From assembly GCA_028344335.1 (NCBI GenBank), contig JAOMAZ010000003.1, positions 1-63,577 of the forward strand: a DNA stretch of 63,577 bases. The letters are read 5' to 3'. The DNA comes from Deltaproteobacteria bacterium. GTDB lineage: Archaea; Thermoplasmatota; Poseidoniia; Poseidoniales; Poseidoniaceae. The translations under genes and the position numbers were made by a program. Under the pieces are notes generated by a model. It saw only the letters and a program-made list of their open reading frames with translations, ran no database searches and was not told the DNA's origin. Shown piece after piece: positions 3,001 to 56,412 of this stretch (positions within the stretch are counted from its first letter, which is position 1; every line of letters starts with the position of its first letter).

Positions 3001-3973
3001 AAAAACTTTTGATGATGCAGTGTTTTACGTACAAGGGTCATTTCAATTCGAATTATTCCTACTTACGAAGGTACCAAATGGAACTGGACCAATTATTATT
3101 TATCTACAAACTTGCGACCAAAAAACCTGTTATTTAGATGAATTAACGATCATTTGGTTCCAAGATACTGATGGCGATGGTTGGGGAGATGGAGAAGACG
3201 TTTTTCCCTTTGACCCTTCAGAATGGCGAGATAGTGATGGCGATGGATTTGGAGATAACGGCGATAAATTCCCTAATGATGCGGCAGAATTTGAGGATAC
3301 AGATGGAGATGGAGTTGGAGATTGGAGAGATCAGTTTCCCACTGACCCAAGTGAATATGTAGATACAGATTGGGATGGATTTGGAGACAACGCTGATGAG
3401 TTCCCTTTGGACTTCAATGAGTGGTTTGACAGCGATGGAGATGGGGTAGGGGATAATTCAGATTACCGTCCATTTGACCCATCAATTCAATCCAAGTCAG
3501 ATTTGAATTCAAAAAATGAAGAGAAATCAAGTACTACTACAGGTCTAGATGATGTGGTGATACTAAGTTTAGGAGGGGTTGCAATAATTCTAATAATTCT
3601 AGTTGTGATTATGCTATTAGTCAGTAACCCAAAAAGAAAAGAAGATATTTTGACTTCTTATGATTCGTCATTCGGCCCAATAGAAGAAAATGAATGGTTA
3701 CCAGTTCCAAATAATGAAAGATTTTTTCCAACACCTGTTGAACAAACCTTTGTAGAACCACAACCAATTTCACAGCCAGAACCACAACCAATTTCACAGC
3801 CAGACCCATTTGGTATCAATCAACTATTACCGCCAAGTGGGCCTCCAGCGCCTCCTGTTGCCAGTATTCCTTCTAATAATGGAATTAGAGATGGCTATGA
3901 ATGGCTGGCTACAAATGGTTTGGATTATTACCGTCCAACTGGTAGTATGGCTGAATGGAAACGCTGGAATTGA
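2..3973 (+). CDS. Giant surface adhesin-like protein, 5'-truncated by the window edge (vWA + propeller-like repeats + 5 TSP3 Ca-binding repeats + TM + cytoplasmic tail)
   Basis: The frame is open from nt 2, with no stop before the TTG at 53 and no signal peptide at the ORF-track start. MIDAS-like VFIVDSSGSMYGEW. Recurrent strand motifs HFSWMDGRD / HIAWVDYAN / HIAWSDNFS. DTDGDGWGD, DSDGDGFGD, DTDGDGVGD, DTDWDGFGD, DSDGDGVGD. TM VVILSLGGVAIILIILVVIMLLV, then KRK and a ~115-aa Pro-rich tail. Confidence 0.85.
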   Translation, partial: EPDYEHSEAITVFDDTLLTPVIGHKGHPVVAIDSNDLVTVSWDDTRGGEVELVFIVDSSGSMYGEWADLCTTLYGGTFSSGDSFQGLKPMLEQANITVYETIYGLGNALPSAASSGDCASHNQNAGPRNSHLSSGDDSGGIRKLPETVYNGATYSGSSMEDWGPGSNWACLSYMDANGNVPGNPPTSADHRWNPNATKIVIPISDEGPKDGDPAGQSDDHASIVEAHDNCITAGVVPVGLYGQSWGGASAVQSHFRDLAQCSDGVQGTHTRSCPGTTLSNSDAGGQVYEFPASGSGSHPMSLLIEAMVYISTNNSREIYMTILDPYGKMNNNNDPSWSRGDRGHSTDGGSYSEDTGVGADGHLVVVNDTRMTNNKGYSYQPSMEFDSYDKLHFSWMDGRDHGTSRDVSYEIYYAKYDIYSDGPLDGRGEGLNVDNFTLIEETVISNVESNLSSPFAGHSAASKLSIDVRDNIHIAWVDYANNSSIEEIIHTRLNSTNNTGPGMTTLDTWGLETITTWYSNKVGNGIGEELPVSELPAVSPDLGNGVHIAWSDNFSCADKTLMVTFSICHTHVSKGSVSLEMRLPDVNYRNLAPGQLTYYNLTLNNTTPGPVDEVAETYQLGLSGIPANWSTELFFASNFTAIDNTTPLWLNGGESMDLFLKVVTPSVFIANQDEIAEIEVSASSIEDQGISSSLVTWTSMDVVHGIKLNTINAVIDIEQGQTAIFSIAITNLGNVHDSFAFYDSNTLEGQQEWMLPYGWSVDFPTEVELNPGQSIAKNLKVEIPISQEPGTFVLYVKGWSVGEPVKNIAKGTYDVLELWLNVRLKTEGNIIIEQSEEKIYILPEECLDIDYHITKHYQSGSLIFSASIDQADWNTTFDWSDVPGTESDRYFLQDQRYRIGLEVCAPASLPENESATITFTATLVGATYVTSNSIIEAIHYRAPTVEISQPIKNSTVDEMTLFIYGNVSGQQRSGETTVSISLNEDEFNREWYLTDIYKAAKTFDDAVFYVQGSFQFELFLLTKVPNGTGPIIIYLQTCDQKTCYLDELTIIWFQDTDGDGWGDGEDVFPFDPSEWRDSDGDGFGDNGDKFPNDAAEFEDTDGDGVGDWRDQFPTDPSEYVDTDWDGFGDNADEFPLDFNEWFDSDGDGVGDNSDYRPFDPSIQSKSDLNSKNEEKSSTTTGLDDVVILSLGGVAIILIILVVIMLLVSNPKRKEDILTSYDSSFGPIEENEWLPVPNNERFFPTPVEQTFVEPQPISQPEPQPISQPDPFGINQLLPPSGPPAPPVASIPSNNGIRDGYEWLATNGLDYYRPTGSMAEWKRWN
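3164..3481 (+). repeat. Five thrombospondin type-3-like calcium-binding repeats with a strict 22-aa (66-nt) period, inside the giant CDS
   Basis: DTDGDGWGDGEDVFPFDPSEWR / DSDGDGFGDNGDKFPNDAAEFE / DTDGDGVGDWRDQFPTDPSEYV / DTDWDGFGDNADEFPLDFNEWF / DSDGDGVGDNSDYRPFDPS, counted directly from the translation. Confidence 0.8.
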
Positions 3974-36340: not shown

Positions 36341-39300
36341 TCAGGATAAACGAGTAAATCCACCTTCATCATCCTGCTTCCAGCGCCCACAATCAGGACC
36401 AATAAACCATGACCCTTCTTCGTCATATTCGTATTCCCCAGCCCAAACTAAACCTTCCCAATCAGCGACTCTTGTACCAACAAGTGGAATTGATTTATCA
36501 TTCTTTGAGGGTTCTGGGGCTTTCAGACTATCTAATGCAGCCAAGGCACTAACAGATACTTCTGTAGGAACAGTCATTGGTACATGGGCAGGTTTTGCTG
36601 CACTTGTCGGCAGAGGATCAGATATATTGACCAACTCTTTTTCTTCTTCAATGAATAGCTTTTCTTCCTTACGAGGTAATCTTCTAATTAAGAAAATAAT
36701 CACTAGTAGAATAACTATCACCCCGCCTCCATACATTGTAGGTTCAGCAATTTGAGATAGGAAAGCCTCCGGTTTTGCAGTCATTTCTACTTCAATGCTA
36801 ATGCTATTATCTTCTTCATTAAGTTCTGGTAAATGGTCATCAGGGTCAACACTTGCAGTTAATATCCAATCTCCGATCTGTTTTGGCCACAAATCAATGG
36901 TCAATGTCCAAATGCCATTTTCTACTAATCCATGAGTCTTAGTTTCACTCCACCCCATCAAGACTTGACCATCGGGAGAGGTCATCGTTATGTTGAGTGT
37001 GATTGGCTGGTCTACGCTTTCTCCTAGATTATCGACCTTTAGAGAGACACGAAATTTATCCCCTATGACAATTAAATCTGAATCGCTAGTGAAAGTAGTC
37101 ATTCTCAAGTCAGGTCCAGTGCTTGTTAATTCCAATTCCAACCAAGGCGTAGTGTTGGAATTAACTCCCGATTCACTGGAGATTTCTCTACCGGCAGCAT
37201 CATTCCCGCTAAGCCAACAAGCCATAATTGAATCACTAGGTAAGTCACTAGGACGCCCGAGTCCACTCATATTGAATTTGAATGAGTAAATACTCCTATC
37301 GCTTAATACTCCAACCGGTGGGAGAGTTAGAGAGATAGCAGGCCAGTCAAGTCCATTACCCCGAACTTGACACCACGCGGTAATCGAATTCTCAAATTCG
37401 ATATCATCCCTAACACTGGCAGTTACTACTACCTCGTTGAGGTGGTAGCGGCTTGGAAGATTATGTTCAGCTGGTGTGAGTAGAAGTGGGTCTTGGTCAT
37501 CAACATGGATCAAAATTGGCCCTAACTCTCCTAGAGTTTGCCAGCCCATTTCATCGAATATTGTCAGTTTTAATTCACCAGTACCGGCTCTTGGTGGGTC
37601 AAGAATTAGCGTGTCCATGCTCCCGTTGACTAATTCAACGGCTTGTTCTCCACTCCATTGTTCACCATTTATTGTCCCATCCCATCTCAATAATACCAGT
37701 CCATCCATTGCTAATCCGGATTGCCCATGGTTGATGTTGGCTGTTACTCGCATTTCATCTCCCATTGCAAGGTAATGGCCATCTTCAATCTCACCTTGCA
37801 GATTTCCTTCAATATCAGTAAAATTGAAATTACTGAGAACCAAATCAGTTGTCAAGAACCATTGATTTTCTAATGCAAATTGCGCTGTGCCGTCGATGTC
37901 AAAAATAACGATATCTAACGCACCGATTGAAACCTCATTGGGGTTGATTCTCCAGGTAGGTGCAAAAAAGATTTCAAGGACCAGATTTCCAGTAATAGTA
38001 CTGCTTGAGCATGAGATGCTATCACTGATTATTCTCTCATCCATGGCGGAGCATCCTCGTCCATCTGACAACCATCTAATTCCCATTTCTTCCTCTCCCC
38101 CGAGCAATAATTTAATTTTATCAATATCCTCAATATCATTTGCATCGCTGACTTCGATTGCCCAACCCGCTACCACCCCTGGCTCCATCCTCATGCCCTG
38201 TCCTAATACTTCAGTTCCAATTATGGTGATAGATTCCAATACCCCGTTTTGTGCCTCCCTTGTTTGCCAAGATAGGAATGGATTATCTTCACCATTATCA
38301 TCGAATGGATGAGCCACCACGTCAAGACCGCTCAGCCAAACTTGCACATTGCCATGGTCGGAATTTGCACTATCATTAATAGTGAAATTTAGATACCATA
38401 ATGAGCCTTGGTTTTGGGCATTAAAAGTCGTTATTACCATTTCTTCAGATTGGGATTGGCCATCCATCGGGCTTCCATTCTTGCCATCATCAACCGCTTC
38501 GACCCAAGTCAGCAATTCTAGACTGGGAACATTTAGACCTCCAGAATCCCAAAGTGTTATCGAGGCTTGTCTGTTAATTTGAGAATTGATATAAGCGCCA
38601 TTTTCAGGGATGGTTGAAATTAAAATTGGTCCATCATCATCAACAATAACTGTCATTGGATCATGTCCGCTTGTTATGTTGTAAGTAAGTGATGACCTTG
38701 CCCTAGCAGTAATTTCAAGACTTCCATTTAGACTTTGATTTAGGGTGTATGAATGCTGTTTTGATGTTGCCATATCAAGCCAATCTGTAGTTTCATTCCA
38801 CCAACTTGTTTGACCTTCGGAATTAGTACTAGTCAATTTTAGTTCAAGTCTTGATTCAAGATCCACCCCACTGTGGTTTTGCATTGTCGAGGGGAAAAAT
38901 GGATTTACCTTGACTAGTAGTTCAGCCCCTTCAGAAACCACTCCGCCCTCCACCATCTCCACTAATTGCTCTTGCCCATTCCAGCGGCTAGACAATGACT
39001 CTATGGTGACCTCTAATTCATTGTCCAATTCGATAATATTACTGAGAACGTGCTCGATTGTTATTCCTGAATGTGGTACACTTTTGGCGCCGAAACGCAA
39101 TTTATCATCTGGGATTCCATCAGCCAAGGTGATATTCCACTGGATTTTACGTTCTCCATTTGAAGCTGAAACTAATTCAACCGTATAACCTCCAATTAGG
39201 CCAAATCCATCTTCAATTACTATATCCCCCAATTCTGGATCTCTGCTGATACTCGCTACAGTTTGGCTAGGCTGGTTGCCATCGGTGGTAGATATCCACA

Positions 39301-40897
39301 GCACATCTAGGGCAGTACCATTGGTTATGTGATGACCTGTGATGATGGGGATTGCTTCGTTAGAAGAATGTACAATCGCCGGAGGTGCTTGGTAAAACCC
39401 TGCATGGTCGACATCCAAAGTTATATTGTTGATATCAGGAGTTGTCCAATTCATCATTTCTGTAGTTTTCATCCGCACACGGTATTCTAAATGATTTGCA
39501 TTGGTGAGGGAAAGAATGCTATCAGTACTCGGATACCAACTAGAAACTGTACCATCTGGGCCGCTCCACATGGTTGATCCAAGGCTTGCTGCAACCATAT
39601 GGCTGCGAATTTGAGTGTCGACAGAGGTGCCAGTAGGAGTGTTAGCATCGATATCTATTCGAATTGGCTTACAGGTGAACTCCGTGGCTGGGCGTAAGTC
39701 CATTGATGGAGATTGAACCCAGCCTTCTGCTGAACTGATATTTCCTGCTACCATTATATCTGACAGATAGGAAACTCCCCACGAATTATAGAGATAGGAG
39801 GACACGTCTCCCGTACCCATGACAATACTGTTGTTAAGAACTGAGGCAGTCAAATCATAGAAGCCAAACTGGAGGTCCGATAATTTTCTCCAGATTCCAG
39901 TTGTGGGATCATAACCCCATGCCTTGTCGCTCTTTGAGCCAGTGCTGCCAGCAAATATCACCAATTCATCATGGAGTACCACTGTTTCATGGCCGAATAA
40001 TGCTTTTGGCATATTAGGTAGAATCCACCAAGTATCGTTTGCGGGGTCATAGACTTCCACATCATCGTAAACAATCGGTGGGTACCATGAACTCGAGGTG
40101 GTTTTATTTGCCCCACCAATGGCATATAGCAAGCCATGATATTCTGTTAAAGTCAAGCCCCAACGAGAGCGATTCATACTCGACATAACTGCCCATTCAT
40201 CGTTAACAGGGTCGTATCTCAAGGTCTGATTTGTGGGGTTAGTTCCACCATTTGCACTAACTCCTCCAGCCACATAGATGTAATCACCCAAGGCTGCGAC
40301 ACCAGCATTACCCACTGCCCTTTCTGATGGAAATGAAGCACCCTCATACCAAGTGGAGTTGCTTAGATTGTAGACTTGAGCCATACCGATAGAATTTTTG
40401 GTGGGATTACTATTGGTCGGCCACCAATCACCCAATACTGCGATTAAATCTCCAACTCGGGCAGAGCCAGCATATTGTTGGGCGTTTTCCATCCCGCCGC
40501 CGCCGCCCCACGCATTATTAGCAAAGTCATAGACCTCTACCATGCTGGTTGCCATTTCATCATTGTTTTGACTAGGATTAGGGTCTTCTCTCCCTCCCAT
40601 CACCCATACTTCCCCTAATTCAGGTATTGCAATCGAAGTTGCTCCTGTCTTGGATATTGGAAGATTAGTGACGCTGCTGAATAGCAAATCCGGTCTTTTC
40701 ATGATTGGCTTGCCTTCATCACTAACGTTGAGGTCAGTTCTTGTTGCCCCATTGCTTGACCAATTGTCATGGATGACAACTACACTCTCTTTATTGTCGA
40801 CATTATTGAGCACTTGATGGCCCATAAAAGGGGTCATGATTGATGCCAATAGGAGGATACAAAGCAGAATAGAATCCAACCTTTTTCTGCCTCCCAT
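36341..40897 (-). CDS. Giant (1518 aa) surface protein: signal peptide, Kelch-type beta-propeller, many beta-sandwich domains, CARDB-like domain, TM, cytoplasmic tail ending in a WW-like module
   Basis: Signal ILLCILLLASIMTPF. Kelch blades (VWVMGGRED, VEVYDFANNAWG, YIYVAGGV, LRYDPVNDEWAVM, LLYAIGGA, VEVYDPANDTWWIL, GYDPTTGIWRKL). CARDB-like ...VDPDDHLPELNEEDNSISIEV. TM GGGVIVILLVIIFLI, then RRLPRKEE and ~115 aa. Confidence 0.85.
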   Translation of the reverse strand: MGGRKRLDSILLCILLLASIMTPFMGHQVLNNVDNKESVVVIHDNWSSNGATRTDLNVSDEGKPIMKRPDLLFSSVTNLPISKTGATSIAIPELGEVWVMGGREDPNPSQNNDEMATSMVEVYDFANNAWGGGGGMENAQQYAGSARVGDLIAVLGDWWPTNSNPTKNSIGMAQVYNLSNSTWYEGASFPSERAVGNAGVAALGDYIYVAGGVSANGGTNPTNQTLRYDPVNDEWAVMSSMNRSRWGLTLTEYHGLLYAIGGANKTTSSSWYPPIVYDDVEVYDPANDTWWILPNMPKALFGHETVVLHDELVIFAGSTGSKSDKAWGYDPTTGIWRKLSDLQFGFYDLTASVLNNSIVMGTGDVSSYLYNSWGVSYLSDIMVAGNISSAEGWVQSPSMDLRPATEFTCKPIRIDIDANTPTGTSVDTQIRSHMVAASLGSTMWSGPDGTVSSWYPSTDSILSLTNANHLEYRVRMKTTEMMNWTTPDINNITLDVDHAGFYQAPPAIVHSSNEAIPIITGHHITNGTALDVLWISTTDGNQPSQTVASISRDPELGDIVIEDGFGLIGGYTVELVSASNGERKIQWNITLADGIPDDKLRFGAKSVPHSGITIEHVLSNIIELDNELEVTIESLSSRWNGQEQLVEMVEGGVVSEGAELLVKVNPFFPSTMQNHSGVDLESRLELKLTSTNSEGQTSWWNETTDWLDMATSKQHSYTLNQSLNGSLEITARARSSLTYNITSGHDPMTVIVDDDGPILISTIPENGAYINSQINRQASITLWDSGGLNVPSLELLTWVEAVDDGKNGSPMDGQSQSEEMVITTFNAQNQGSLWYLNFTINDSANSDHGNVQVWLSGLDVVAHPFDDNGEDNPFLSWQTREAQNGVLESITIIGTEVLGQGMRMEPGVVAGWAIEVSDANDIEDIDKIKLLLGGEEEMGIRWLSDGRGCSAMDERIISDSISCSSSTITGNLVLEIFFAPTWRINPNEVSIGALDIVIFDIDGTAQFALENQWFLTTDLVLSNFNFTDIEGNLQGEIEDGHYLAMGDEMRVTANINHGQSGLAMDGLVLLRWDGTINGEQWSGEQAVELVNGSMDTLILDPPRAGTGELKLTIFDEMGWQTLGELGPILIHVDDQDPLLLTPAEHNLPSRYHLNEVVVTASVRDDIEFENSITAWCQVRGNGLDWPAISLTLPPVGVLSDRSIYSFKFNMSGLGRPSDLPSDSIMACWLSGNDAAGREISSESGVNSNTTPWLELELTSTGPDLRMTTFTSDSDLIVIGDKFRVSLKVDNLGESVDQPITLNITMTSPDGQVLMGWSETKTHGLVENGIWTLTIDLWPKQIGDWILTASVDPDDHLPELNEEDNSISIEVEMTAKPEAFLSQIAEPTMYGGGVIVILLVIIFLIRRLPRKEEKLFIEEEKELVNISDPLPTSAAKPAHVPMTVPTEVSVSALAALDSLKAPEPSKNDKSIPLVGTRVADWEGLVWAGEYEYDEEGSWFIGPDCGRWKQDDEGGFTRLS

Positions 40898-40994
40898 AAT
40901 GTTTTGGCAATACTAGACAGCCTTGTTCTTTGTGGTTTGGTGAATAACTGAAAATTAACGCACAATTCTGCATACCTTCATTGGTGATGGCGTG

Positions 40995-42233
40995 ATGCGC
41001 GGCCGCAGGTGGATGCTGATGGCCGACGAATTTATCGCCCGACATCCTTTAACAGGCAAATCTCTCAATACTGGAACTCGGCGAAGCCGCAAGAAAAAAG
41101 TTCGGACAATACAAACTGGACCTTGGAGTGAAATCGAAAGAGAGGATGTGATTCCTCTGGCTAGGGGGGATGTTCCGGTTATTGAAGTGTTATTTGAAGG
41201 ACGACCTGTCAAAGTTGGCAGACCTGCCGGAATTAGAGCCCTTCCGAGAATGATTACTGGGCCACTAAAACCAATGCACGATGCCTTGGTAATGGCATTA
41301 GTGGATAACAACCCCGAAGTTCGCATGGCTGGAATTGAAGTTTTACCCATATGTGCAATGCGTGATTCTGAGCAATTATTGGATATTCTTGCAGAGTTAT
41401 TGGATGATGATGTTTTGATGGTTCAACAAGCTGCATCTCACTGTCTTGGAGATTTGGCTGCGGACTTCCCATCCGGTACTGATACCTTACTTCATATCGA
41501 ATTGCGACATACTGTTGAAAGCCGCCGAAAAGAAGCCTGGAGAGGATTACGCTCATTGTGTAGTATCTGGCCGGATGTTGCTGCTGACCACATCGACCGA
41601 TTGATTCGGGAAAAGGAACTTCGATTGAGAAGAGATGCTGCATCGATGTTAAGTAGATTAGTATCTCGTTCTGGCGCCAAGATTTGGGACCTCATTTCAT
41701 GGTCCTTACAAGATGAAGATGGAGAAGTTAGAATCAGAGCTGCATCTACTCTACGTCCTTTGGCAGAATCTCATCCAAAAATCGCTCTAATCTTGGCCGA
41801 AAACGCACTCTTTGATTCTGAGGAAAAAGTCCGCGCCAAAGTAATCAGTTGCCTCGACCGATTAGACTCCTCTTCCACCAAGTTGCGCTCTTTGGTTACT
41901 AGTGGATGTAGAGTCGCAGATGTTGCAGTAAGAAAAGCCTGCATCCATTTAATCACCCGTCTCTATAGTGATGATGAGGCTAGAGAACTATCCATTGAAT
42001 TGCTGAAACAAGAAACCAATAAGGAGTTGATTGAATATCTTGAGGACTTGGCAGTAGACCACCAATTAGAAGGTGATGAGGCGAGGAAAAATGCCTACTT
42101 GGCTCCGGCTGAACCTGTGCCTGCAAGAGATCTTGAAATTATGGCAAGTGAGGCAGATTTACCACCACGATTATCTTTAGAGGAAGACAACCCAGTAAAG
42201 TCTTCGACTAAAGATGAAGATAGGCACGCTTAA
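40995..42233 (+). CDS. HEAT-repeat protein (PBS-lyase/HEAT-like repeats)
   Basis: Repeated D..xxVR...a...L units: NNPEVRMAGIEVL, DDVLMVQQAASHCL, DEDGEVRIRAASTL, DSEEKVRAKVISCL, VADVAVRKACIHL. Start uncertain (GTG 40992, ATG 40995/41013/41019). Confidence 0.65.
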   Translation: MRGRRWMLMADEFIARHPLTGKSLNTGTRRSRKKKVRTIQTGPWSEIEREDVIPLARGDVPVIEVLFEGRPVKVGRPAGIRALPRMITGPLKPMHDALVMALVDNNPEVRMAGIEVLPICAMRDSEQLLDILAELLDDDVLMVQQAASHCLGDLAADFPSGTDTLLHIELRHTVESRRKEAWRGLRSLCSIWPDVAADHIDRLIREKELRLRRDAASMLSRLVSRSGAKIWDLISWSLQDEDGEVRIRAASTLRPLAESHPKIALILAENALFDSEEKVRAKVISCLDRLDSSSTKLRSLVTSGCRVADVAVRKACIHLITRLYSDDEARELSIELLKQETNKELIEYLEDLAVDHQLEGDEARKNAYLAPAEPVPARDLEIMASEADLPPRLSLEEDNPVKSSTKDEDRHA

Positions 42234-50284: not shown

Positions 50285-51223
50285 TCACTTCCATAGATGT
50301 CTGCATATGCTGCATCTTAATTCGCCACTACCGGCTCTTTCAACATCTTCTGATTCGCATTCAGGACAAGTTATGCCTTCTTTTGGTGGAGTTCTTGAGG
50401 AAATAGTTTTTGGAATTACTTTTTCTGAGGATTTTGGACCACTACTGCCTTTGAATTGCCCTTTGGAGCGGCGTTGGCGAGACCTTGCCTGATTACCTTG
50501 TTTTTCCTTGTTAACTATCAGATGCAAGTGTGGTTCTGGAATGCTTTCTCCGGCAAGAACTACGGGGTGGGATTTGTATCTCCATAATTTGATGTGGCGA
50601 TCAACTGCTCTACCCATCGGTGCTGACATACAGATGTAGACACAAATCCATGCAGGGAAAAACAGAAAACTACCATCTACCATATTCCATTCAGGAGTCC
50701 AAGGCAGGCTGATATAATCGACTCTGAATCCATTAACCACATCCCCTACCCATGCAAATATTGCGATAATGAAGATGAAAGTGAACATCATCGGTTTCAT
50801 TCCACCCATTTGAACAGCCATTTGTTCTGGCATTAATTGCTGTTGTAGCATTGCTGCCTTGTCCTTGCGGATTGGGTCTCTTGCCATCGCCGCCTCATTT
50901 GTCATACGACGAACTTGGGACATACGGTGAGCAATGTGTGCTTGTTTTATTGGGTCGATGAAAAAATTTCTCAAAACAGTATTGACCAGCATCGAGGCAG
51001 TTCCAATAACCAGTACAGTAACTACAAACCACTTTTCTTCAGGGAGGATTGGTGAAAGGATTGGATTTGCATAACCAGCCAATCCTTCTCTGAATCCTGG
51101 ATTCATCAATAGGACCATCATTAGCAGCATGAAGAATAGCATCATCAGCATACCACCCGCAGGGGCGGGAGGTCCAGCGCCTGGTGCAGCCTGTGCCATG
51201 GCCTGTCCGGCTCGCTGATTCAC
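50285..51223 (-). CDS. DUF106 / archaeal YidC-Oxa1-EMC3-like membrane insertase with a long basic tail and C-terminal zinc ribbon
   Basis: TM - coiled-coil (AHIAHRMSQVRRMTNEAAMARDPIRKDKAAMLQQQ) - KPMMFTFIFIIAIFAWV core typical of DUF106. C-terminal KEKQGNQARSRQRRSKGQFKG...ITCPECESEDVERAGSGELRCSICRHLWK. Confidence 0.75.
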   Translation of the reverse strand: MNQRAGQAMAQAAPGAGPPAPAGGMLMMLFFMLLMMVLLMNPGFREGLAGYANPILSPILPEEKWFVVTVLVIGTASMLVNTVLRNFFIDPIKQAHIAHRMSQVRRMTNEAAMARDPIRKDKAAMLQQQLMPEQMAVQMGGMKPMMFTFIFIIAIFAWVGDVVNGFRVDYISLPWTPEWNMVDGSFLFFPAWICVYICMSAPMGRAVDRHIKLWRYKSHPVVLAGESIPEPHLHLIVNKEKQGNQARSRQRRSKGQFKGSSGPKSSEKVIPKTISSRTPPKEGITCPECESEDVERAGSGELRCSICRHLWK

Positions 51224-51304
51224 ATGAAGTTTGGCTTCATCAAAGGTAGTGATTTTCTAATCATTCATTCGACATGCTTTCAGCATGAACCGCCATGGCC
51301 CAGC

Positions 51305-52684
51305 ATGGATGCAGTTCAAGCCACCCTCGATATGGCCGACGCGCAGGCCAAAATGGGACTAATGGATGAAGCCGTATCGGAATTAAGGAAGGCAGTTAGA
51401 GTACATCCTCGAAACCTTGAAATCCATGAAAAATTGGGTATTTTCCTTGCCCAAAAAGAACGCTATGAGGCAGCACTACCTCATTTACAAAGAGTCCTAA
51501 GGAAGAAAGGTGAGTGTGGTGATTTGGTAATGCTTGCTGGTGATTGTGCCTACTCAACCGGTAGAAATAAAGAAGCCGTAAAATGGTTTGAGCGTTGCAT
51601 TTCAATATCATATATGCCTGAAAGGGCATTAGCAAATCTTGGACGAGCACTGATTGGTAGAAGAAAGCCCCAACAAGCATGGGACAGGTTGCATGAAGCA
51701 TTTATTGCTAGTGAAAGCTCTTCAAAAGAACTCCATAAGGTACTGGAAATGTGTGCCCCATTAATCGGCTCTACGGTACCTGCAATGGCTAACCCAGAGT
51801 GGCTAGAACCATCGGGGACCAAAATGATCGGTGCAGTCTCTGGTTCAATAGAGGAAATGGCTGGAATAATGGGCGAGGACCTTCTAGTCGACAAAGACAA
51901 TAATGCATTCGATATTTTCTCGGATGAGGATGAAATTGAACCATCTTTGAAAATTGCCTTGCCAGGAAGTGGTTTGGATTCACAAGAGGCTAGAGAGAGT
52001 TGGGGAGTAGGTCAAGAAGTTCCGATTGAATTTGAGGATATTCAATCAACAGCAAGTGCTAGCCAAGGAAGTTGGATTGAAGATAACCATTGGGATTCCA
52101 TTCCTAAAGTTGAGAATGCTGAGCCTGAGCCTGAACCTGAGCCTGATCCTGAGCCTGAACCTGATCCTGAGCCTGAGCCTGAGCCTGAGCCTGAACCTGA
52201 AGTAGAGCAAGAAGCAGAATCAGTAGAGGATGCTGAGCTATTATTTGGGATTGGGGAAACCACTCCTCCAAAATCAGAACAAGAAGAACTAATGGAAGTG
52301 CGAACTATGATTCATAGATTGGAAATGCCCACTTCGGGAAGTCCAGTTGTGGCAAGCGAAGGAAACGCCCTTTCACAATTAGCACGCATGCAAAAACCTC
52401 CTGCTGTTTGGTGCTGGACTACGTCTTATGGAGAAGTCCCTTGGGGATTGGAACTATTGAAGTCCCATCCAAATGATCGACTTGAGGCAGCAAAGGCCGA
52501 ATTAGAAGAATGGAACAGGCAGAACCCAGGTGTATGGCTGGCTATAGATATGCAGGCTGAGGGGAGAGTCCCTGCAAACATGGAGGGCCTTGTTCAAGTC
52601 ATCTCAAACGTTAATACACCGATAATTATCTTGGTTCCTGACGATGAAGTCAAGTGTAGTTGGCCGAGATGGGGCTTAGAATAA
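51305..52684 (+). CDS. TPR-repeat protein with acidic (E/D-P)n linker and unrecognised C-terminal domain
   Basis: TPR-like helices (AQAKMGLMDEAVSELRKAVRVHPRNLEIHEKLGIFLAQKERYEAALPHLQRVL...). 27-residue EPEPEPEPDPEPEP... tract. The ATG at 51305 is preferred over the ORF-track start at 51224. Confidence 0.7.
   Translation: MDAVQATLDMADAQAKMGLMDEAVSELRKAVRVHPRNLEIHEKLGIFLAQKERYEAALPHLQRVLRKKGECGDLVMLAGDCAYSTGRNKEAVKWFERCISISYMPERALANLGRALIGRRKPQQAWDRLHEAFIASESSSKELHKVLEMCAPLIGSTVPAMANPEWLEPSGTKMIGAVSGSIEEMAGIMGEDLLVDKDNNAFDIFSDEDEIEPSLKIALPGSGLDSQEARESWGVGQEVPIEFEDIQSTASASQGSWIEDNHWDSIPKVENAEPEPEPEPDPEPEPDPEPEPEPEPEPEVEQEAESVEDAELLFGIGETTPPKSEQEELMEVRTMIHRLEMPTSGSPVVASEGNALSQLARMQKPPAVWCWTTSYGEVPWGLELLKSHPNDRLEAAKAELEEWNRQNPGVWLAIDMQAEGRVPANMEGLVQVISNVNTPIIILVPDDEVKCSWPRWGLE
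52121..52201 (+). repeat. Hexanucleotide (GAN-CCT)n microsatellite-like tract, 13.5 units, coding for (E/D-P)n
   Basis: gagcctgagcctgaacctgagcctgatcct..., read directly. In frame within the TPR protein. Confidence 0.9.
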
Positions 52685-52689
52685 TTCAC

Positions 52690-55446
52690 TTAAAATTTGA
52701 AGCCACAAGTTGTGCACTCCGGAGTGCCTTCAGGATTCTGAGTTGTACAGATTTCACAGGTTAGTACTCCACCAGAAGTTTCCTCAGGAGTTCCCTCTTC
52801 TTGTGTTGATTCAGCAACTTCTTCCTCAACAGCTTCTTCTGTAGCCTCTCCTTCATCATCGGCTTCCTGCTCAGGTTCTTCTTCGCTGGATTCTTCGCTG
52901 GCTTCTTCTTCACTGGCTTCTTCTTCGCTGGCCTCTTCTTCACTGGATTCTTCGCTACCCCATGCTTCAGCAGCAGAGGAAAGTTCCCCCTTGTTCAGAT
53001 ATTTGTTATCATCAGTATCGAAGTTTATTGCATGGGCAAGGAATGCATCCCGGTCTTCTATTCCGTTTGCTTCCATTACCTTTTTGAGGACATTTTCGTT
53101 CCAACTAAAACTGGATGTATCGGTTTCAGATGTAGTCCCTTCTTCGACTTCTTCTTCACCAGCCATCTTTGCCATGGCTGAGTCATCTTCTACCTCATCG
53201 CCAAAGGTGGCACCGTGGAATTTTTGCATTGCTTGAGCATCGATGTCTCCATCTCCCTTTATCTCATAAGATACTTCTAAGCGCTCATCTTTAGCAATTA
53301 CTGGAACGTTCCATTCAACATTCATACCATCATCTGAGTCTGAGGTATTCATCTCAACATCACTTCTCTTTTCATTACCTGCACCTCTAATGATACAGTC
53401 TTTAATATCAAAACCAGATGGTAATATATCATGAATGACAAGGTCCTGAAGGGCAGTATCTGAGCGGTTTTCGAAGATTATTAGAACCTCGTAGCGCCCC
53501 TTCCCACCGATTGGGATGACGGTCTTTCCAGCGCTGAACTTGCGGCGCTTGTGTGTGACCTTGATTATAGGGGAGTCTCTTGCATCACGAGCACAAACAG
53601 GTCCGAATCTCTCGGCACTGAATTCGATTCTACTAGGTGCTGCAACTTCTACATTAGCAGGTGTCGGATCTGGAGCAGTTAAGCTATAGTTGATTTCCAA
53701 AGTTTGATCTGGTAATAGACCGATTGGACCACGAGTTCCAACAGTTAATTCCAGAGTGTAGCCTTCTCCATCAGGGCTACGGCGGAATTCCTCAAGGCTG
53801 ACTCCACCCTTTAAATCTGCACGGAATTGTTCAGCACTCATCCTTTCTCCATCGATGTTAATTGTGATGGAATCAGTATCAAGGGCATTGAATAAGCCAG
53901 GGATATCATCTGTAATTCTCATCAAATTGATTTCCGATGAACCGGTATTCTTGATGCTTAAGCAGGAGTTTACAACTTGTTCTCGATAACTTCTAAGAAT
54001 TGCTGCATCGTAAGTTTTCTGAACATCTGCTTCCAAGACAGTGAAGGTCTGTGGTTCTAACTCAATGCTACCGGAAGAACTGTGCTCAATACGAGGAATG
54101 ACCGAGTATCCTAATTCATTTGTGAAATCAGGTCTGTCATTTGCTTCAACTATCATAACCTCTGATTCCCACTTATCTTGGGGAAGAACATCATCTACAA
54201 CATCTGAAACATCGAACAATAAGTCATCGCTTCCAGATACTCTTACTTGTAGTTTAACTAGGTCAACAGCGAAACTGGAACGGTTCTCAAAGACTGCTTG
54301 ACATCGCCAGTTATCTGGGCGTTCATCTTCATCGACTACCATATAGCTGAAGCCACGGCAGAATGCATCGAGTTCAGTGAAGTGAGTAGTTGAGAGAGTT
54401 GCGTTTGCATTGTAGGTTACTTTGGATGAACCTGCGTTGACAGGCTCAACTTCACTGACCAATACATTCGCTTCACAAGTGAGGGTTTTGGTTTCCCCTG
54501 CATTCAGGGTTCCGACCTTCCAAGTTAGAGTTCCAGAATCGACTTCAGCACCTGAGGTGATTTCAATTTGATCTGGGATATCACGAGTTACTTCCACGTC
54601 ATTCAAAGAAACTGATGCGACGTTTTCCACCTCGATTTCAAGGCTAATTGCTGTTGCTTCCGTATCATGGCTGATTGAGAGGCTTCGTTCTTGAGCACGG
54701 GCAGGATTAGTATCGATTCTTTCTTTCAGAACCAGCATTCTTGCACCCTTAACAGTGTATTCTACTTTGTGATCGCTCTCAGGTTCTAGTTCACCGACTG
54801 GTAAGTGTTCGTTGGAAAGATCGGTTGCTCCAGAGCCAGCAAGGAAGATATCGATATCCCAAAGTCTATCTTCGGAACTTGGATTATGTAATTCCAATTT
54901 CCCCGAGACATTTTGTCGGACAATTTCTCCATCGCAAGTGAGTAGTGAATCCTCAACTTCAGAGAGAGAGCCATGAATCTTATCACCTTGCACTGAGTCT
55001 AAATCCTCTATAGAGCGAAGTTTTCCTTGTGCGTAGCGGCCACTTGGAGTTGTATCTTCAGTAAATGCAACAGGTTCGTCGACTGTTCCACCGGTGAGTA
55101 AGTCGTGGCTAGGAAGTGGTGCTAACTCTTCAGGTGGAGCAGGCGGTGCTAGCAAATCCATACCTGGCGGTGCAGGCGGTGCTTCGAGTTCCGCAGGTTC
55201 TTCGGGTGGTGCAGGTGGCATATCCATGTCAGGAGGCGGTGGTGGGACCTCATCCATCATTGGAGGCATAGGAGGTAAATCCATACCTGGTGGTGCTGGA
55301 GGCGCAGGTGGCATATCCATATCTGGTGGTGCAGGAGGTGCAGGAGGCGCTTCGCCCATCATTGGTGGCGGTGGTGGCAAGTCCATACCTGGAGGGGCTG
55401 GTGGCATTCCTGGCGGTGGTGGTGGCATTTCTTCACTCATATTCAA
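52690..55446 (-). CDS. Large (918 aa) signal-less protein: polyproline N-terminus, DUF11-like beta-sandwich domains, acidic SEEEA tract, C-terminal RanBP2-spaced zinc finger
   Basis: N-terminal ~110 aa of PPPPGMPPAPPGMDLPPPPPMMGEAPPAPPAPPDMDMPPAPP... Internal domains resemble DUF11 (e.g. VENVASVSLNDVEVTRDIPDQIEI...GTLTWKVGTLNAGETKTLTCEANV). SEEEASEEEASEEEASEE. C-terminal LTCEICTTQNPEGTPECTTCGFKF. No hydrophobic signal or TM segment seen. Confidence 0.8.
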   Translation of the reverse strand: MNMSEEMPPPPPGMPPAPPGMDLPPPPPMMGEAPPAPPAPPDMDMPPAPPAPPGMDLPPMPPMMDEVPPPPPDMDMPPAPPEEPAELEAPPAPPGMDLLAPPAPPEELAPLPSHDLLTGGTVDEPVAFTEDTTPSGRYAQGKLRSIEDLDSVQGDKIHGSLSEVEDSLLTCDGEIVRQNVSGKLELHNPSSEDRLWDIDIFLAGSGATDLSNEHLPVGELEPESDHKVEYTVKGARMLVLKERIDTNPARAQERSLSISHDTEATAISLEIEVENVASVSLNDVEVTRDIPDQIEITSGAEVDSGTLTWKVGTLNAGETKTLTCEANVLVSEVEPVNAGSSKVTYNANATLSTTHFTELDAFCRGFSYMVVDEDERPDNWRCQAVFENRSSFAVDLVKLQVRVSGSDDLLFDVSDVVDDVLPQDKWESEVMIVEANDRPDFTNELGYSVIPRIEHSSSGSIELEPQTFTVLEADVQKTYDAAILRSYREQVVNSCLSIKNTGSSEINLMRITDDIPGLFNALDTDSITINIDGERMSAEQFRADLKGGVSLEEFRRSPDGEGYTLELTVGTRGPIGLLPDQTLEINYSLTAPDPTPANVEVAAPSRIEFSAERFGPVCARDARDSPIIKVTHKRRKFSAGKTVIPIGGKGRYEVLIIFENRSDTALQDLVIHDILPSGFDIKDCIIRGAGNEKRSDVEMNTSDSDDGMNVEWNVPVIAKDERLEVSYEIKGDGDIDAQAMQKFHGATFGDEVEDDSAMAKMAGEEEVEEGTTSETDTSSFSWNENVLKKVMEANGIEDRDAFLAHAINFDTDDNKYLNKGELSSAAEAWGSEESSEEEASEEEASEEEASEESSEEEPEQEADDEGEATEEAVEEEVAESTQEEGTPEETSGGVLTCEICTTQNPEGTPECTTCGFKF

Positions 55447-55584
55447 TCATCTCCAGCCCCCAGTACTGCGGGCGTTTCGCCCATTATCGCTCAGGGTATA
55501 ACGCTTGCCAACCGCCGACCAGACTAGAAGTAACGAACTCTAGTTGATGCGAGCATTGAAAACGGGTAGTTGTTGGCGGCAATC

Positions 55585-56412
55585 ATGGCAGGACAAGATG
55601 CAACCTCACCACCAGTTCTCTTCATCGTAGGAACAGCCGGCGCTGGCAAGAGTTCATTGACGACAGCATTCCAGAGATGGGCTCGATTTATCGAGGTAGA
55701 TACTCTGACAATAAATCTCGACCCCGGAGCAGAAAGAGTCCACCACGACCCTGAATTCGACGTTAGGGATCTTGTTTCCCTTTCTGATGTCATGGATGAA
55801 TATGACCTTGGACCAAACGGTGCACAAATTCTAGCAGCTGATTTAGTAGCAGCACAAGCCCATGATATCGCAGAAGAATTGGATGGACTTTCGGGTGATA
55901 TCATGATAATAGATACTCCGGGGCAAGTCGAATTATTTGCCTTCAGAGAAGCATCATCCCATATGATAGAGGTTTTGGGTAAGGACAAAGCGGCGGTCAT
56001 CTATCTCTTCGACCCAATGTTATCTCGCTCACCCAGCGGATTCGTCTCCCAAATGCTCCTTTCGAGTATAGTTGAGTTTAGATTAGGACTACCAACCAAG
56101 AATTTCCTCTCCAAGTGCGACCTCTTAGAAGAAGGAGAACTTGAGAAAATCATGGAGTGGGGGGAGCGTTTGGAAATCCTTGAACTAGCACTTTATGAGG
56201 AAGCAGGAGGTCAAAGAACAGAATTTGCTATCAATCAACTACGTCTTTTACAAGACTTCGCGCAATCTCCTGGTCTAACTCCTCTATCCAGTGAGTTGGA
56301 AGAAGGATTGGCTGACATTCTAACTTTTGCAGAAGCATTGTATGGTGGAATGGGCGATGCTAGAGATGGTTTTGCCAGCGACATCGAGAATGAGAAAGAC
56401 ACTTTTGAGTGA
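55585..56412 (+). CDS. GPN-loop GTPase (PAB0955/XAB1 family)
   Basis: P-loop FIVGTAGAGKSS, LDPGAE, the GPN motif in YDLGPNGAQI, and IIDTPGQVELF. The ATG at 55585 is preferred over the TTG at 55570. Confidence 0.85.
   Translation: MAGQDATSPPVLFIVGTAGAGKSSLTTAFQRWARFIEVDTLTINLDPGAERVHHDPEFDVRDLVSLSDVMDEYDLGPNGAQILAADLVAAQAHDIAEELDGLSGDIMIIDTPGQVELFAFREASSHMIEVLGKDKAAVIYLFDPMLSRSPSGFVSQMLLSSIVEFRLGLPTKNFLSKCDLLEEGELEKIMEWGERLEILELALYEEAGGQRTEFAINQLRLLQDFAQSPGLTPLSSELEEGLADILTFAEALYGGMGDARDGFASDIENEKDTFE

What the first reader, a model, noticed from the sequence alone, without database searches (positions are those of the whole stretch)
52690..55446. Cytosolic 918-aa protein with formin/WASP-style polyproline head, DUF11-like domains, acidic tract and RanBP2-spaced zinc finger: candidate hub for WW-like adhesin tails
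Residues 1-110 are iterated PPxPPG-MD[LM]-PPxPP units (PPAPPGMDLPPPPPMM, PPAPPAPPDMDMPPAPP, and so on). The body contains several DUF11-like beta-sandwich segments that are normally extracellular, yet no signal peptide or TM segment is visible. A SEEEA x3 acidic tract follows. The C-terminus, LTCEICTTQNPEGTPECTTC, matches the C-x2-C-x3-N-x6-C-x2-C spacing of RanBP2/NZF zinc fingers as I recall the pattern (only the leading Trp is replaced). Polyproline is the ligand class of WW, SH3 and profilin modules. Two giant adhesins in this window end in WW-like modules on their cytoplasmic tails, and a third tail is P/Y-rich. Taken together, these point to a previously undescribed intracellular scaffold that links surface adhesins. 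The divergent neighbour is a GPN-loop GTPase.
Basis: inference. Interest (0 to 1): 0.7.

Follow-up and report, generated by a model that had tools for sequence, protein, structure and literature searches.

The report
Archaeal adaptor-like protein with polyproline head
This gene of a marine Group II archaeon encodes a cytosolic scaffold whose conserved core has the same fold as the cargo-binding "mu-homology" domain of eukaryotic vesicle-coat adaptors, here carrying a lineage-specific polyproline arm, a calcium-binding loop and a zinc ribbon, so a supposedly Asgard/eukaryote-type module is also universal in abundant ocean archaea.

Summary
The ORF is real: 52690-55446 on the minus strand, with the likely start at ATG 55440, giving 916 aa. 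The polyproline head, acidic tract, C-terminal Cys4 ribbon, absence of a signal peptide or TM segment, and the divergent GPN-loop GTPase are all confirmed.

The "DUF11 domains" label misreads the body. Residues ~150-470 form a mu-homology-domain (MHD) fold. An AlphaFold model of this region has pLDDT 95.6, and its top 50 Foldseek PDB hits are all AP-1 to AP-4 mu or delta-COP MHDs (TM up to 0.70). A family profile hits only coat-adaptor chains in the PDB. Of 60 relatives, 28 match Pfam Adap_comp_sub.

The ~600-aa body is one conserved unit. It occurs in at least 214 Poseidoniales species genomes, in other Thermoplasmatota and in Asgard archaea. The Asgard members were already listed as AP-mu-like signature proteins (Eme et al. 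2023).

The polyproline head, EF-hand loop, acidic linker and zinc ribbon are Poseidoniales additions.

The adhesin tail motif is real and recurs, but no profile identifies it as a WW domain. A polyproline-tail interaction remains untested.

My best reading is a cytosolic motif-binding adaptor or scaffold. I rate it a new variant of a known kind, interest about 0.6.

The parts
52690..55440 (-). Coding sequence of the 916-aa protein (ATG 55440 to stop 52690-52692). The mechanical ORF starts two codons earlier, at TTG 55446.
   Evidence: (P0001 = 916 aa)
55111..55428 (-). Polyproline head, aa 7-112: ten PPxPP units, mostly PPAPP followed by G/E/D-M. Predicted disordered or PPII. Its length is highly variable in orthologs (0-360 aa).
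55024..55110 (-). Disordered linker, aa 113-141, with a DLL motif.
   Evidence: pLDDT < 50
54037..54999 (-). Mu-homology-domain-like module, aa ~150-470 (boundaries +/- 20 aa). It includes the family signature NPSxxDRhWDIDh (54847-54885) and ERPDNWxC (54301-54324).
54388..54654 (-). Pfam DUF11/CLIPPER match, aa 265-353. It aligns to MHD subdomain B of AP-2/AP-3 mu chains.
53197..54036 (-). Two further beta-sandwich domains, aa 471-750. The last one (aa 647-746, 53209-53508) is a second, diverged DUF11-like sandwich.
52948..53097 (-). Three-helix module, aa 784-833, with one canonical EF-hand loop DTDDNKYLNKGE (52984-53019). Some orthologs have a SAP domain here instead.
52771..52947 (-). Acidic disordered linker, aa 834-892, including (SEEEA)x3.
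52693..52764 (-). C-terminal Cys4 zinc ribbon, aa 895-918 (CEIC-x10-CTTC at 52705-52758).
55570..56412 (+). Divergent GPN-loop GTPase (PF03029). It is a neighbour in 30/30 Poseidoniales loci with enough upstream sequence.
50285..51223 (-). EMC3/DUF106 (YidC-like) insertase with its own C-terminal zinc ribbon. It lies downstream on the same strand in 65/65 Poseidoniales loci.
3893..3970 (+). C-terminal tail motif GYEWLATNGLDYYRPTGSMAEWKRWN of the 1306+-aa surface protein. The TM segment is at 3554-3622, so the tail is cytoplasmic by inference.
36374..36439 (-). Related tail motif GEYEYDEEGSWFIGPDCGRWKQ of the 1518-aa Kelch/CARDB surface protein. The TM segment is at 36686-36736.

Best explanation
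The gene encodes a cytosolic adaptor or scaffold of an archaeal family whose ~600-aa all-beta core begins with a mu-homology-domain (MHD)-like module. This is the fold that eukaryotic AP-complex mu subunits, delta-COP, stonins and muniscins use to dock onto short peptide motifs.

Shown:
- The MHD-like fold and family membership.
- Cytosolic features throughout the family.
- Universality and strong conservation in Poseidoniales.
- The polyproline head, EF-hand loop (or a SAP domain in some orthologs), acidic linker and zinc ribbon are Poseidoniales-specific additions.

Inferred mechanism:
- The conserved beta platform binds short linear motifs of partner proteins. Plausible partners are the 100-140-aa cytoplasmic tails of the giant type-I surface proteins this lineage encodes.
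- The length-variable PPAPP(G/E)M array acts as a multivalent PPII arm that recruits or spaces further partners.
- The EF-hand loop makes the assembly Ca2+-responsive.
- The zinc ribbon, on its acidic tether, provides a second docking point.

I am confident in the identity (about 0.85) and much less so in the cargo-tail function (about 0.3).
For: Fold:
- The AF2 model of aa 138-480 has pLDDT 95.6 and pTM 0.88.
- Its 50 best Foldseek PDB hits are all MHDs of AP-1/2/3/4 mu or delta-COP, with E 1e-9 to 7e-8 and TM (target-normalised) 0.32-0.70, 0.5 or higher for most isolated MHD chains.
- The same hits appear for the full-length model.

Sequence:
- The family profile A3 hits 28 PDB sequences, and all are coat-adaptor chains. 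The best is AP-3 mu at E 0.0016. The matches are collinear over both MHD subdomains.
- 28/60 family members match PF00928 Adap_comp_sub, best E 1.9e-10. There are stray AP3B1_C and Alpha_adaptinC2 hits.

One family:
- The Poseidoniales body aligns to the distant relatives with hhalign probability 100%, E 3e-90, over 578 columns.
- BLASTP against the relative P0314 (a PF00928 hit on record) gives 2e-45.
- The Asgard relatives are the Adap_comp_sub candidates of Eme et al. 2023.

Cytosolic location:
- No TM segment or signal peptide here or in 67 relatives.
- The Cys4 ribbon is present in 116/120 orthologs and the EF loop in 113/120.
- One relative is fused to a NACHT NTPase.

Conservation:
- At least 665 proteins at 49-92% identity.
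- 214 GTDB species genomes.

Candidate ligands:
- Three giant surface proteins in the window have single C-terminal TM segments and long tails.
- Two of those tails end in a shared aromatic motif that recurs in other Poseidoniales loci.
Against: - The window protein itself gives no PF00928 hit even at E<=1.
- The PDB sequence E-values are marginal (>=0.0016).
- TM scores of 0.5-0.7 with rmsd 5-9 A show a shared fold, not a conserved binding site. The YxxPhi / WxxPhi pockets were not examined.
- No longin domain, adaptin or clathrin-like partner was found nearby.
- Distant relatives share no conserved neighbour.
- Poseidoniales are not known to have endomembranes.
- SAP-domain variants and RanBP2/eL40-like ribbon similarities would fit a nucleic-acid-related role equally well.
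- No interaction was tested.
Confidence: 0.6

Rival explanations
1. One reading: the polyproline head is the ligand for WW-like modules at the ends of the adhesins' cytoplasmic tails, so the protein is a hub that bundles surface adhesins.
For: - The head is a genuine multivalent PPxPP array.
- The tail motif is real and C-terminal, and follows a TM segment. It recurs in orthologous TSP3-repeat surface proteins of other Poseidoniales (L002, L045), with 0 chance matches in reversed ORFs.
- The motif has the beta1-Gly-beta2(YY/WF)-Gly-beta3(W) pattern expected of a WW-like mini-sheet (read directly from the sequence).
Against: - No WW (PF00397) hit or any other Pfam hit for the three tails at E<=5.
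- The Trp spacing is 17 residues, not 20-22, and there is no closing Pro.
- Only two tails occur in 63 kb of window and two in about 1 Mb of other Poseidoniales sequence.
- Co-occurrence is uninformative, because the MHD protein is universal in the order.
- No modelling of the complex was possible.
- The most conserved part of the protein is the beta body, not the head, whose length drifts from 0 to 360 aa.
Confidence: 0.12
2. It is a secreted or surface DUF11/CLIPPER-type stalk protein exported by a non-classical route.
For: - The Pfam DUF11 hit is above threshold.
- DUF11 = CLIPPER is characterised as an extracellular isopeptide-bonded adhesin stalk domain (PMC12617251).
- The full model's top Foldseek hits include integrin legs and AgI/II C123.
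- The protein is very acidic, like the surface proteins of this lineage.
Against: - No signal peptide or TM segment in over 100 orthologs and 67 distant relatives.
- The Cys4 zinc ribbon and EF-hand are conserved.
- The DUF11 segment sits inside an MHD fold.
- The first strand of that segment (ISLEIEVEN) has no Lys for an isopeptide bond (read from the sequence).
- One relative is fused to the cytosolic NACHT domain.
- The integrin and AgI/II hits have TM scores of only 0.13-0.22 (query-normalised; AgI/II up to 0.36 target-normalised).
Confidence: 0.04
3. It is a nucleic-acid or ribonucleoprotein-assembly-associated factor, for example working with the GPN-loop GTPase or ribosome-biogenesis neighbours. 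The zinc ribbon or SAP module would bind RNA or DNA, and the beta body would act as a chaperone platform.
For: - The GPN GTPase is divergently adjacent in 30/30 Poseidoniales loci, and the EMC3-cmk-Cbf5 block is downstream in 65/65.
- Some orthologs carry a SAP domain in place of the EF-hand module.
- The ribbon's weak PDB similarities are to eL40, Nup153 and RanBP2 fingers.
Against: - The synteny covers more than 10 genes and looks like order-wide conserved gene order.
- Distant relatives have none of these neighbours.
- The ribbon similarities have E 0.05-2.
- The conserved core has no nucleic-acid-binding fold.
Confidence: 0.1
4. It is a membrane-remodelling or cell-division accessory, analogous to the adaptin-appendage-like proteins with zinc ribbons found in archaeal ESCRT loci.
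For: - Makarova et al. 2024 report adaptin-appendage-like Ig/TBP domains, some with zinc ribbons, in archaeal ESCRT neighbourhoods, and place such domains in the last archaeal common ancestor.
- A few family members give AP3B1_C or Alpha_adaptinC2 hits.
Against: - No Vps4 or ESCRT-III gene lies next to this gene in the window or in any locus examined.
- The appendage-type hits are rare and weak.
Confidence: 0.08

Closest known systems
Mu-homology domain (Pfam PF00928 Adap_comp_sub) of AP-1 to AP-4 mu subunits and COPI delta
   Same: It has the same elongated two-sandwich fold (Foldseek top 50, TM up to 0.70). There is collinear weak sequence similarity. Relatives match PF00928. It is cytosolic.
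   Different: It has no N-terminal longin domain and no evidence of a heterotetramer. Two extra beta-sandwiches follow the MHD. The window protein itself is below Pfam detection. The binding-pocket residues were not verified.
Asgard 'Adap_comp_sub' eukaryotic-signature-protein candidates (Eme et al. 2023, Nature 618:992, Suppl. 4.3.1 and file 6)
   Same: It belongs to the same family: full-length homology over ~580 columns. The same N-terminal signature is visible in the listed Jordarchaeia sequence. These are also standalone genes with no fused longin domain.
   Different: The window protein is from Poseidoniales (Thermoplasmatota), not Asgard. It is 49-92% conserved across the order and present in at least 214 species genomes. 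It carries a polyproline head, EF-hand/SAP module, acidic linker and zinc ribbon that the Asgard members lack.
Muniscins (FCHo1/2, Syp1), SGIP1 and stonins
   Same: The overall layout is similar: a long disordered proline-rich region joined to an MHD that acts as an interaction hub, without a longin domain (from established knowledge of these families).
   Different: In those proteins the MHD is C-terminal and is preceded by F-BAR or other membrane-binding modules. No membrane-binding module is recognisable here. The resemblance is architectural and is not evidence of orthology.
DUF11 / CLIPPER (PF01345), CnaA-like isopeptide stalk domain of fibrillar adhesins
   Same: There is a Pfam match above threshold for aa 265-353, plus a second diverged copy at aa 647-746.
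   Different: It is not extracellular and not tandemly repeated. No first-strand Lys is available for an isopeptide bond. The segment forms subdomain B of an MHD-like fold.
RanBP2/NZF zinc finger (PF00641) and other short Cys4 zinc ribbons (eL40, UPF0547)
   Same: It has the C-x2-C-x3-N-x6-C-x2-C spacing. There are weak similarities to Nup153/RanBP2 fingers and eL40.
   Different: All scores are below threshold. The conserved Trp and the NZF T-F ubiquitin-binding dipeptide are absent in all 116 orthologs that have the ribbon.
Formin FH1 / WASP-type polyproline tracts
   Same: It has iterated PPxPP units followed by G/E-M. It is probably a multivalent PPII ligand.
   Different: There is no FH2, WH2, EVH1-ligand or profilin context. 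Actin-type partners are not known in this lineage. Copy number varies freely between close relatives.

Membership tests
Mu-homology domain (PF00928 Adap_comp_sub) | Profile match to PF00928 at or above the gathering score (31.6 bits) | tested here: inconclusive
   The window protein gives no hit at E<=1. Of 60 family members, 28 hit at E<=0.01, with the best at 1.9e-10. The ten inspected individually score 21.8-28.8 bits, below the cut-off.
Mu-homology domain (PF00928 Adap_comp_sub) | Elongated all-beta fold of two sandwich subdomains, superimposable on solved MHDs | tested here: met
   The AF2 model of aa 138-480 has pLDDT 95.6. All of its top 50 Foldseek PDB hits are MHDs, with E down to 1.1e-9 and TM (target) 0.32-0.70, mostly 0.5 or higher for isolated MHD chains.
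Mu-homology domain (PF00928 Adap_comp_sub) | Sequence-level similarity to solved MHDs that is specific and collinear | tested here: met
   Profile A3 hits 28 PDB sequences, and all are coat-adaptor chains. Profile positions 37-75 match MHD 6-44, and 147-261 match MHD 122-240. E-values are marginal, 0.0016 upward.
Mu-homology domain (PF00928 Adap_comp_sub) | Peptide-motif binding pocket (YxxPhi, or Wxx[FW] in delta-COP) | not testable with these tools
AP/COPI medium subunit (whole protein) | N-terminal longin domain and assembly into a heterotetramer with adaptin and sigma subunits | tested here: not met
   The N-terminus is a disordered polyproline tract. No longin or adaptin genes are in the neighbourhood.
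DUF11 / CLIPPER (PF01345) | Pfam match above the gathering score | tested here: met
   41.6 bits against a cut-off of 24.6, for aa 265-353.
DUF11 / CLIPPER (PF01345) | Extracellular location (signal peptide or anchor) and tandem stalk arrangement | tested here: not met
   There is no hydrophobic segment (maximum KD19 of 0.83). The N-termini of the whole family are hydrophilic. Only two diverged copies exist, separated by other domains.
DUF11 / CLIPPER (PF01345) | Lys-Asn isopeptide triad | tested here: inconclusive
   The first strand (ISLEIEVEN) has no Lys by inspection. No structure-based check was possible. PMC12617251 notes that some DUF11 domains lack the bond.
RanBP2/NZF zinc finger (PF00641) | C-x2-C-x10-C-x2-C with Asn at +4 | tested here: met
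   Present in the window protein. The Cys4 pattern is in 116/120 orthologs, with the Asn in 99.
RanBP2/NZF zinc finger (PF00641) | Pfam score at or above 27 bits, the conserved Trp before Cys1, and the NZF T-F motif | tested here: not met
   The score is 11.8 bits (window) and 14.9 bits (best ortholog). The Trp occurs in 0/116 and T-[FYW] in 0/116.
WW domain (PF00397), for the adhesin tails | Profile match; two Trp 20-22 residues apart with a closing Pro | tested here: not met
   No Pfam hit at E<=5 for any of the three tails. The Trp spacing in tail 1 is 17 residues, with no closing Pro (read from the sequence).
EF-hand | 12-residue loop D-x-[DN]-x-[DNS]-x-x-[ILV]-x-x-x-E flanked by helices | tested here: met
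   The loop DTDDNKYLNKGE lies between predicted helices 797-807 and 817-831 at pLDDT about 90. The loop pattern is in 113/120 orthologs. Pfam EF-hand_7 reaches only E 0.075-0.3, so Ca2+ binding is inferred.

The most novel reading that the evidence does not exclude
Poseidoniales, which are non-Asgard archaea without known endomembranes, may possess a working cargo-adaptor-like system. In it, a universal MHD-type protein would read conserved aromatic motifs on the cytoplasmic tails of giant surface proteins and organise them through its polyproline arm under Ca2+ control. That would make peptide-motif recognition by an MHD an archaeal invention that predates, or spread independently of, the Asgard-eukaryote lineage and vesicle coats.
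Probability: 0.12. Interest if true: 0.9.

Novelty: new variant of a known kind. Interest (0 to 1): 0.6.

Why it matters
The mu-homology domain is the cargo-reading module of eukaryotic vesicle coats. Its archaeal relatives have so far been reported as sparse, Asgard-specific "eukaryotic signature proteins".

Here the same family turns out to be universal, single-locus and strongly conserved in Marine Group II archaea, among the most abundant planktonic archaea, and also present in other Thermoplasmatota. This changes what can be inferred about the origin of this building block. It could be older than Asgard, or it could have been horizontally exchanged.

It also offers an abundant family for asking what an MHD does in a cell without vesicle traffic.

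The Poseidoniales architecture combines a polyproline arm, an MHD, an EF-hand and a zinc ribbon. In the same genomes, giant surface proteins carry long, motif-bearing cytoplasmic tails. Together these give a concrete, testable adaptor-cargo hypothesis.

On the practical side, the polyproline-coding repeat is a frequent assembly breakpoint, which truncates this gene in many MAGs.

Tried and rejected
- A whole-protein PDB sequence search found only insignificant EF-hand hits.
- Foldseek on the full-length model is dominated by generic Ig-array hits (integrin legs, AgI/II) with TM 0.13-0.2. I judged these uninformative and replaced them with a domain-level model.
- I tested whether the body is a tandem MHD duplication. 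hhalign found only the two DUF11-like sandwiches related to each other, so I dropped the idea.
- The genome-contig scan with the broad alignment A3 failed because no stretch was conserved enough. I redid it with A2.
- The gene neighbourhoods of three distant relatives (Heimdall-, Asgard-like and Thermoplasmatota) share no neighbour, so there is no operon-level clue.
- Literature searches for 'mu homology domain'+archaea, Adap_comp_sub+Asgard, Asgard+adaptor+'medium subunit' and Asgard+muniscin returned nothing. 'Asgard'+'clathrin adaptor' led to Eme 2023 and Makarova 2024.
- A homology search with the TM segment plus tail of the first adhesin found nothing, not even itself; that ORF is cut by the window edge.
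- Pfam scans of the three tails found nothing.
- Pfam scans of 26 other window ORFs found no SH3, WW, GYF, profilin, longin, small-GTPase or ESCRT component.
- PF27408, recorded for many family members in the big database, is not in the local Pfam copy, so I could not identify it.


Full report
**Observation**

The ORF 52690..55446 (minus strand) exists and is 918 aa from a TTG. A GGAG lies 8 nt upstream of the ATG at 55440. Gene callers and orthologs all start M-S/T-D/E-E. The product is therefore most likely 916 aa.

The sequence features check out as follows:
- **Polyproline head.** Residues 7-112 hold 50 Pro in 110 residues and ten PPxPP units.
- **Acidic tract.** (SEEEA)x3 is real.
- **No export signal.** No 19-residue window exceeds a Kyte-Doolittle mean of 0.83, and a stop codon precedes the ORF, so there is no signal peptide or TM segment.
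- **Zinc ribbon.** The C-terminus has C-x2-C-x3-N-x6-C-x2-C. The Cys4 pattern is conserved in 116/120 orthologs, with the Asn in 99. The RanBP2 Trp and the NZF T-F dipeptide occur in none. Pfam Zn_ribbon_RanBP stays far below threshold, at 11.8-14.9 bits against 27. A family profile gives only insignificant PDB hits to eL40, Nup153 and RanBP2 fingers.
- **Neighbour.** The divergent neighbour is a GPN-loop GTPase (PF03029, E 4.9e-50).

**Organism and family**

A search of the body (aa 111-918) returned at least 665 proteins. The best 120 have E < 1e-247 and 49-92% identity. Where named, they are Candidatus Poseidoniaceae, Thalassarchaeaceae or Poseidoniales. The window is therefore a Marine Group II archaeon.

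All orthologs share one architecture:
- a proline-rich head of very variable length (0-360 aa, about 45% Pro, dominant unit PPAPP[G/E]M);
- a body of about 620 aa that is highly conserved;
- a small helical module;
- an acidic linker;
- the Cys4 ribbon.

The helical module contains a canonical EF-hand loop (DTDDNKYLNKGE here; the pattern is in 113/120 orthologs). Some orthologs have a SAP domain in its place.

A scan of GTDB species genomes found 214 genomes with the gene, and the best 80 are all Poseidoniales. Within the order the locus is fixed:
- GPN GTPase divergent upstream in 30/30 loci with enough flank;
- EMC3/DUF106 insertase downstream on the same strand in 65/65.

**What the body is**

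Pfam gives one DUF11 hit (aa 265-353, 41.6 bits). DUF11 has recently been renamed CLIPPER and characterised as an extracellular, isopeptide-bonded adhesin stalk domain (PMC12617251). The puzzle dissolves on closer analysis.

- **A wider family.** A profile of the body, searched against 1.84 billion cluster representatives, found 176 proteins at E <= 1e-30. Many are 590-800 aa long and align over the whole body. Named members are Heimdall-, Loki/Promethe-, Hel- and Borr-archaea, other Thermoplasmatota, and a shorter Thalassarchaeaceae paralog.
- **Full-length homology.** hhalign of Poseidoniales bodies against these relatives gives probability 100%, E 3e-90, over 578 columns.
- **Pfam link to adaptors.** 28 of 60 family members match PF00928 Adap_comp_sub, the C-terminal mu-homology domain of clathrin-adaptor medium subunits, with the best at 1.9e-10.
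- **PDB link to adaptors.** The family profile hits 28 distinct PDB sequences. Every one is a coat-adaptor chain: AP-1, -2, -3 or -4 mu, delta-COP, or the gamma-adaptin ear. The matches are collinear over both halves of the MHD, although the E-values are marginal, 0.0016 upward.
- **Structure, whole protein.** AlphaFold2 with a 68-sequence alignment models aa 140-750 as all-beta at pLDDT about 90. The head, a short linker after the body and the acidic linker come out disordered. Helices lie at 782-831, and the ribbon is confident.
- **Structure, N-terminal third of the body.** A separate model of aa 138-480 has pLDDT 95.6 and pTM 0.88. All 50 of its best Foldseek hits in the PDB are mu-homology domains, with E 1e-9 to 7e-8 and target-normalised TM 0.32-0.70, 0.5 or higher for most isolated MHD chains.

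The DUF11 match corresponds to MHD subdomain B. An internal comparison shows a second, diverged DUF11-like sandwich at aa ~647-746. There is no evidence that the whole MHD is duplicated.

**Known or new**

Eme et al. 2023 reported Adap_comp_sub homologs in most Asgard phyla. They described them as sparse and never fused to the longin domain, and they list 44 candidates. The first listed sequence carries the same N-terminal signature as the window protein.

The family, and its resemblance to AP mu subunits, is therefore already in the literature for Asgard archaea. I could not find the following described anywhere:
- its universal, strongly conserved presence in Poseidoniales and other Thermoplasmatota;
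- the Poseidoniales-specific elaboration of polyproline head, EF-hand/SAP module, acidic tether and zinc ribbon.

Among 67 relatives inspected, the polyproline head occurs essentially only in Poseidoniales. Others have Lys/Glu-rich or ~100-aa N-terminal extensions. A few end in a different zinc ribbon, and one is fused to a NACHT NTPase. None has a signal peptide.

**How it probably works**

Shown:
- an MHD-like fold;
- cytosolic hallmarks;
- order-wide conservation;
- a disordered, multivalent PPxPP array whose length drifts freely;
- a canonical Ca2+-loop pattern;
- a Cys4 ribbon on a 60-residue acidic tether.

Inferred, from what MHDs do in AP complexes, delta-COP, stonins and muniscins: the beta platform docks short linear motifs of partner proteins, and the other modules add valency and regulation.

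Attractive candidate ligands are the 100-140-aa cytoplasmic tails of the giant type-I surface proteins in this window:
- a Kelch/CARDB protein at 36341-40897;
- the 1727-aa protein at 11478-16661;
- the TSP3-repeat-like protein ending at 3973.

Two of these tails end in a shared aromatic/Gly motif, YEW..G..YYRP.GS..EW and a variant. The motif recurs at the C-terminus of orthologous surface proteins in two other Poseidoniales loci. It gives no matches in reversed ORFs covering about 0.6 million residues.

- no WW or other Pfam hit for the tails;
- non-canonical Trp spacing;
- no complex modelling was possible.

Tryptophan- or tyrosine-based tail motifs binding the MHD-like platform is an equally plausible link between the same proteins.

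I consider the other rivals less likely:
- **Exported DUF11 stalk protein.** The cytosolic features listed above argue against this.
- **RNA/RNP-associated factor.** SAP variants, ribbon similarities and the GPN neighbour would fit. However, the synteny is order-wide gene order and is absent next to distant relatives.
- **ESCRT-linked accessory.** This would parallel Makarova 2024, but no ESCRT genes are nearby.

**Verdict**

The sequence observations are largely right. The family labels DUF11, RanBP2/NZF and WW are not secure. The central insight is that the protein is a Poseidoniales variant of the archaeal mu-homology-domain family.

It is a new variant of a known kind, of moderate-to-high interest for two reasons. 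It extends an "Asgard/eukaryote" trafficking module to abundant non-Asgard archaea. It also yields a testable adaptor-cargo hypothesis.

Noticed in passing
window 55111-55428; loci L006-L085: In 51 of 82 Poseidoniales loci the contig ends less than 1.2 kb upstream of the conserved body, that is, inside or next to the polyproline-coding repeat. The repeat seems to be a systematic assembly breakpoint. This also explains the many N-terminally 'truncated' orthologs.
   Followed up: partly
window 55094-55501 (+): This 135-aa Gly-rich ORF on the opposite strand is just the mirror image of the CCN-rich polyproline coding region. It is not a gene.
   Followed up: partly
window 3893-3970 (+), 36374-36439 (-); L002 1100-3154; L045 2056-5259: A recurrent C-terminal cytoplasmic tail module (G)YEW-x-G-x-[WY]YRP-x-GS-x-EW occurs on giant calcium-repeat or Kelch/CARDB surface proteins of Poseidoniales. 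It matches no Pfam family. It could be a sorting or anchoring signal in its own right.
   Followed up: partly
window 50285-51223 (-): The EMC3/DUF106 (YidC-like) insertase carries a Pro/Ala/Gly-rich N-terminus and its own C-terminal CxxC-x13-CxxC zinc ribbon. It is always the next same-strand gene after the MHD-like gene in Poseidoniales.
   Followed up: partly
window 51224-52684 (+): This convergent TPR protein has a long (PE/PD)n acidic repeat and an extra C-terminal region, giving 486 aa. The gene at the same position in the two other Poseidoniales loci inspected (L001, L002) encodes only 140-146 aa; I did not test whether those small proteins are its homologs.
   Followed up: no
window 40992-42233 (+): A HEAT-repeat (alpha-solenoid) protein with weak PDS5/Cnd1-like hits is encoded divergently from the 1518-aa surface protein. 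I did not check it for adaptin-N-like similarity.
   Followed up: no
window 19710-22565 (-) and 31927-34581 (+): Two large MMPL/RND-type transporters with sterol-sensing-domain/Patched-like hits lie in the same 63-kb window.
   Followed up: no
P0269 (Borrarchaeum), P0175 (Lokiarchaeota), L004 10706-12025: Some distant family members are fused to other modules: a NACHT NTPase in P0269 and a long, unannotated C-terminal extension in P0175 (no Pfam hit). In one relative's locus (L004; organism not named by the source) a WD40 beta-propeller gene with BBS7/IFT122-like hits lies two genes downstream.
   Followed up: no
L019, L024: Two contigs that carry this archaeal gene belong to MAGs labelled Salipiger bermudensis and Rhodobiaceae bacterium. 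This probably reflects bin contamination in the public records.
   Followed up: no
family-wide: Many members carry a precomputed Pfam accession, PF27408, that is missing from the local Pfam copy. It may be a recently built family for part of this protein.
   Followed up: no
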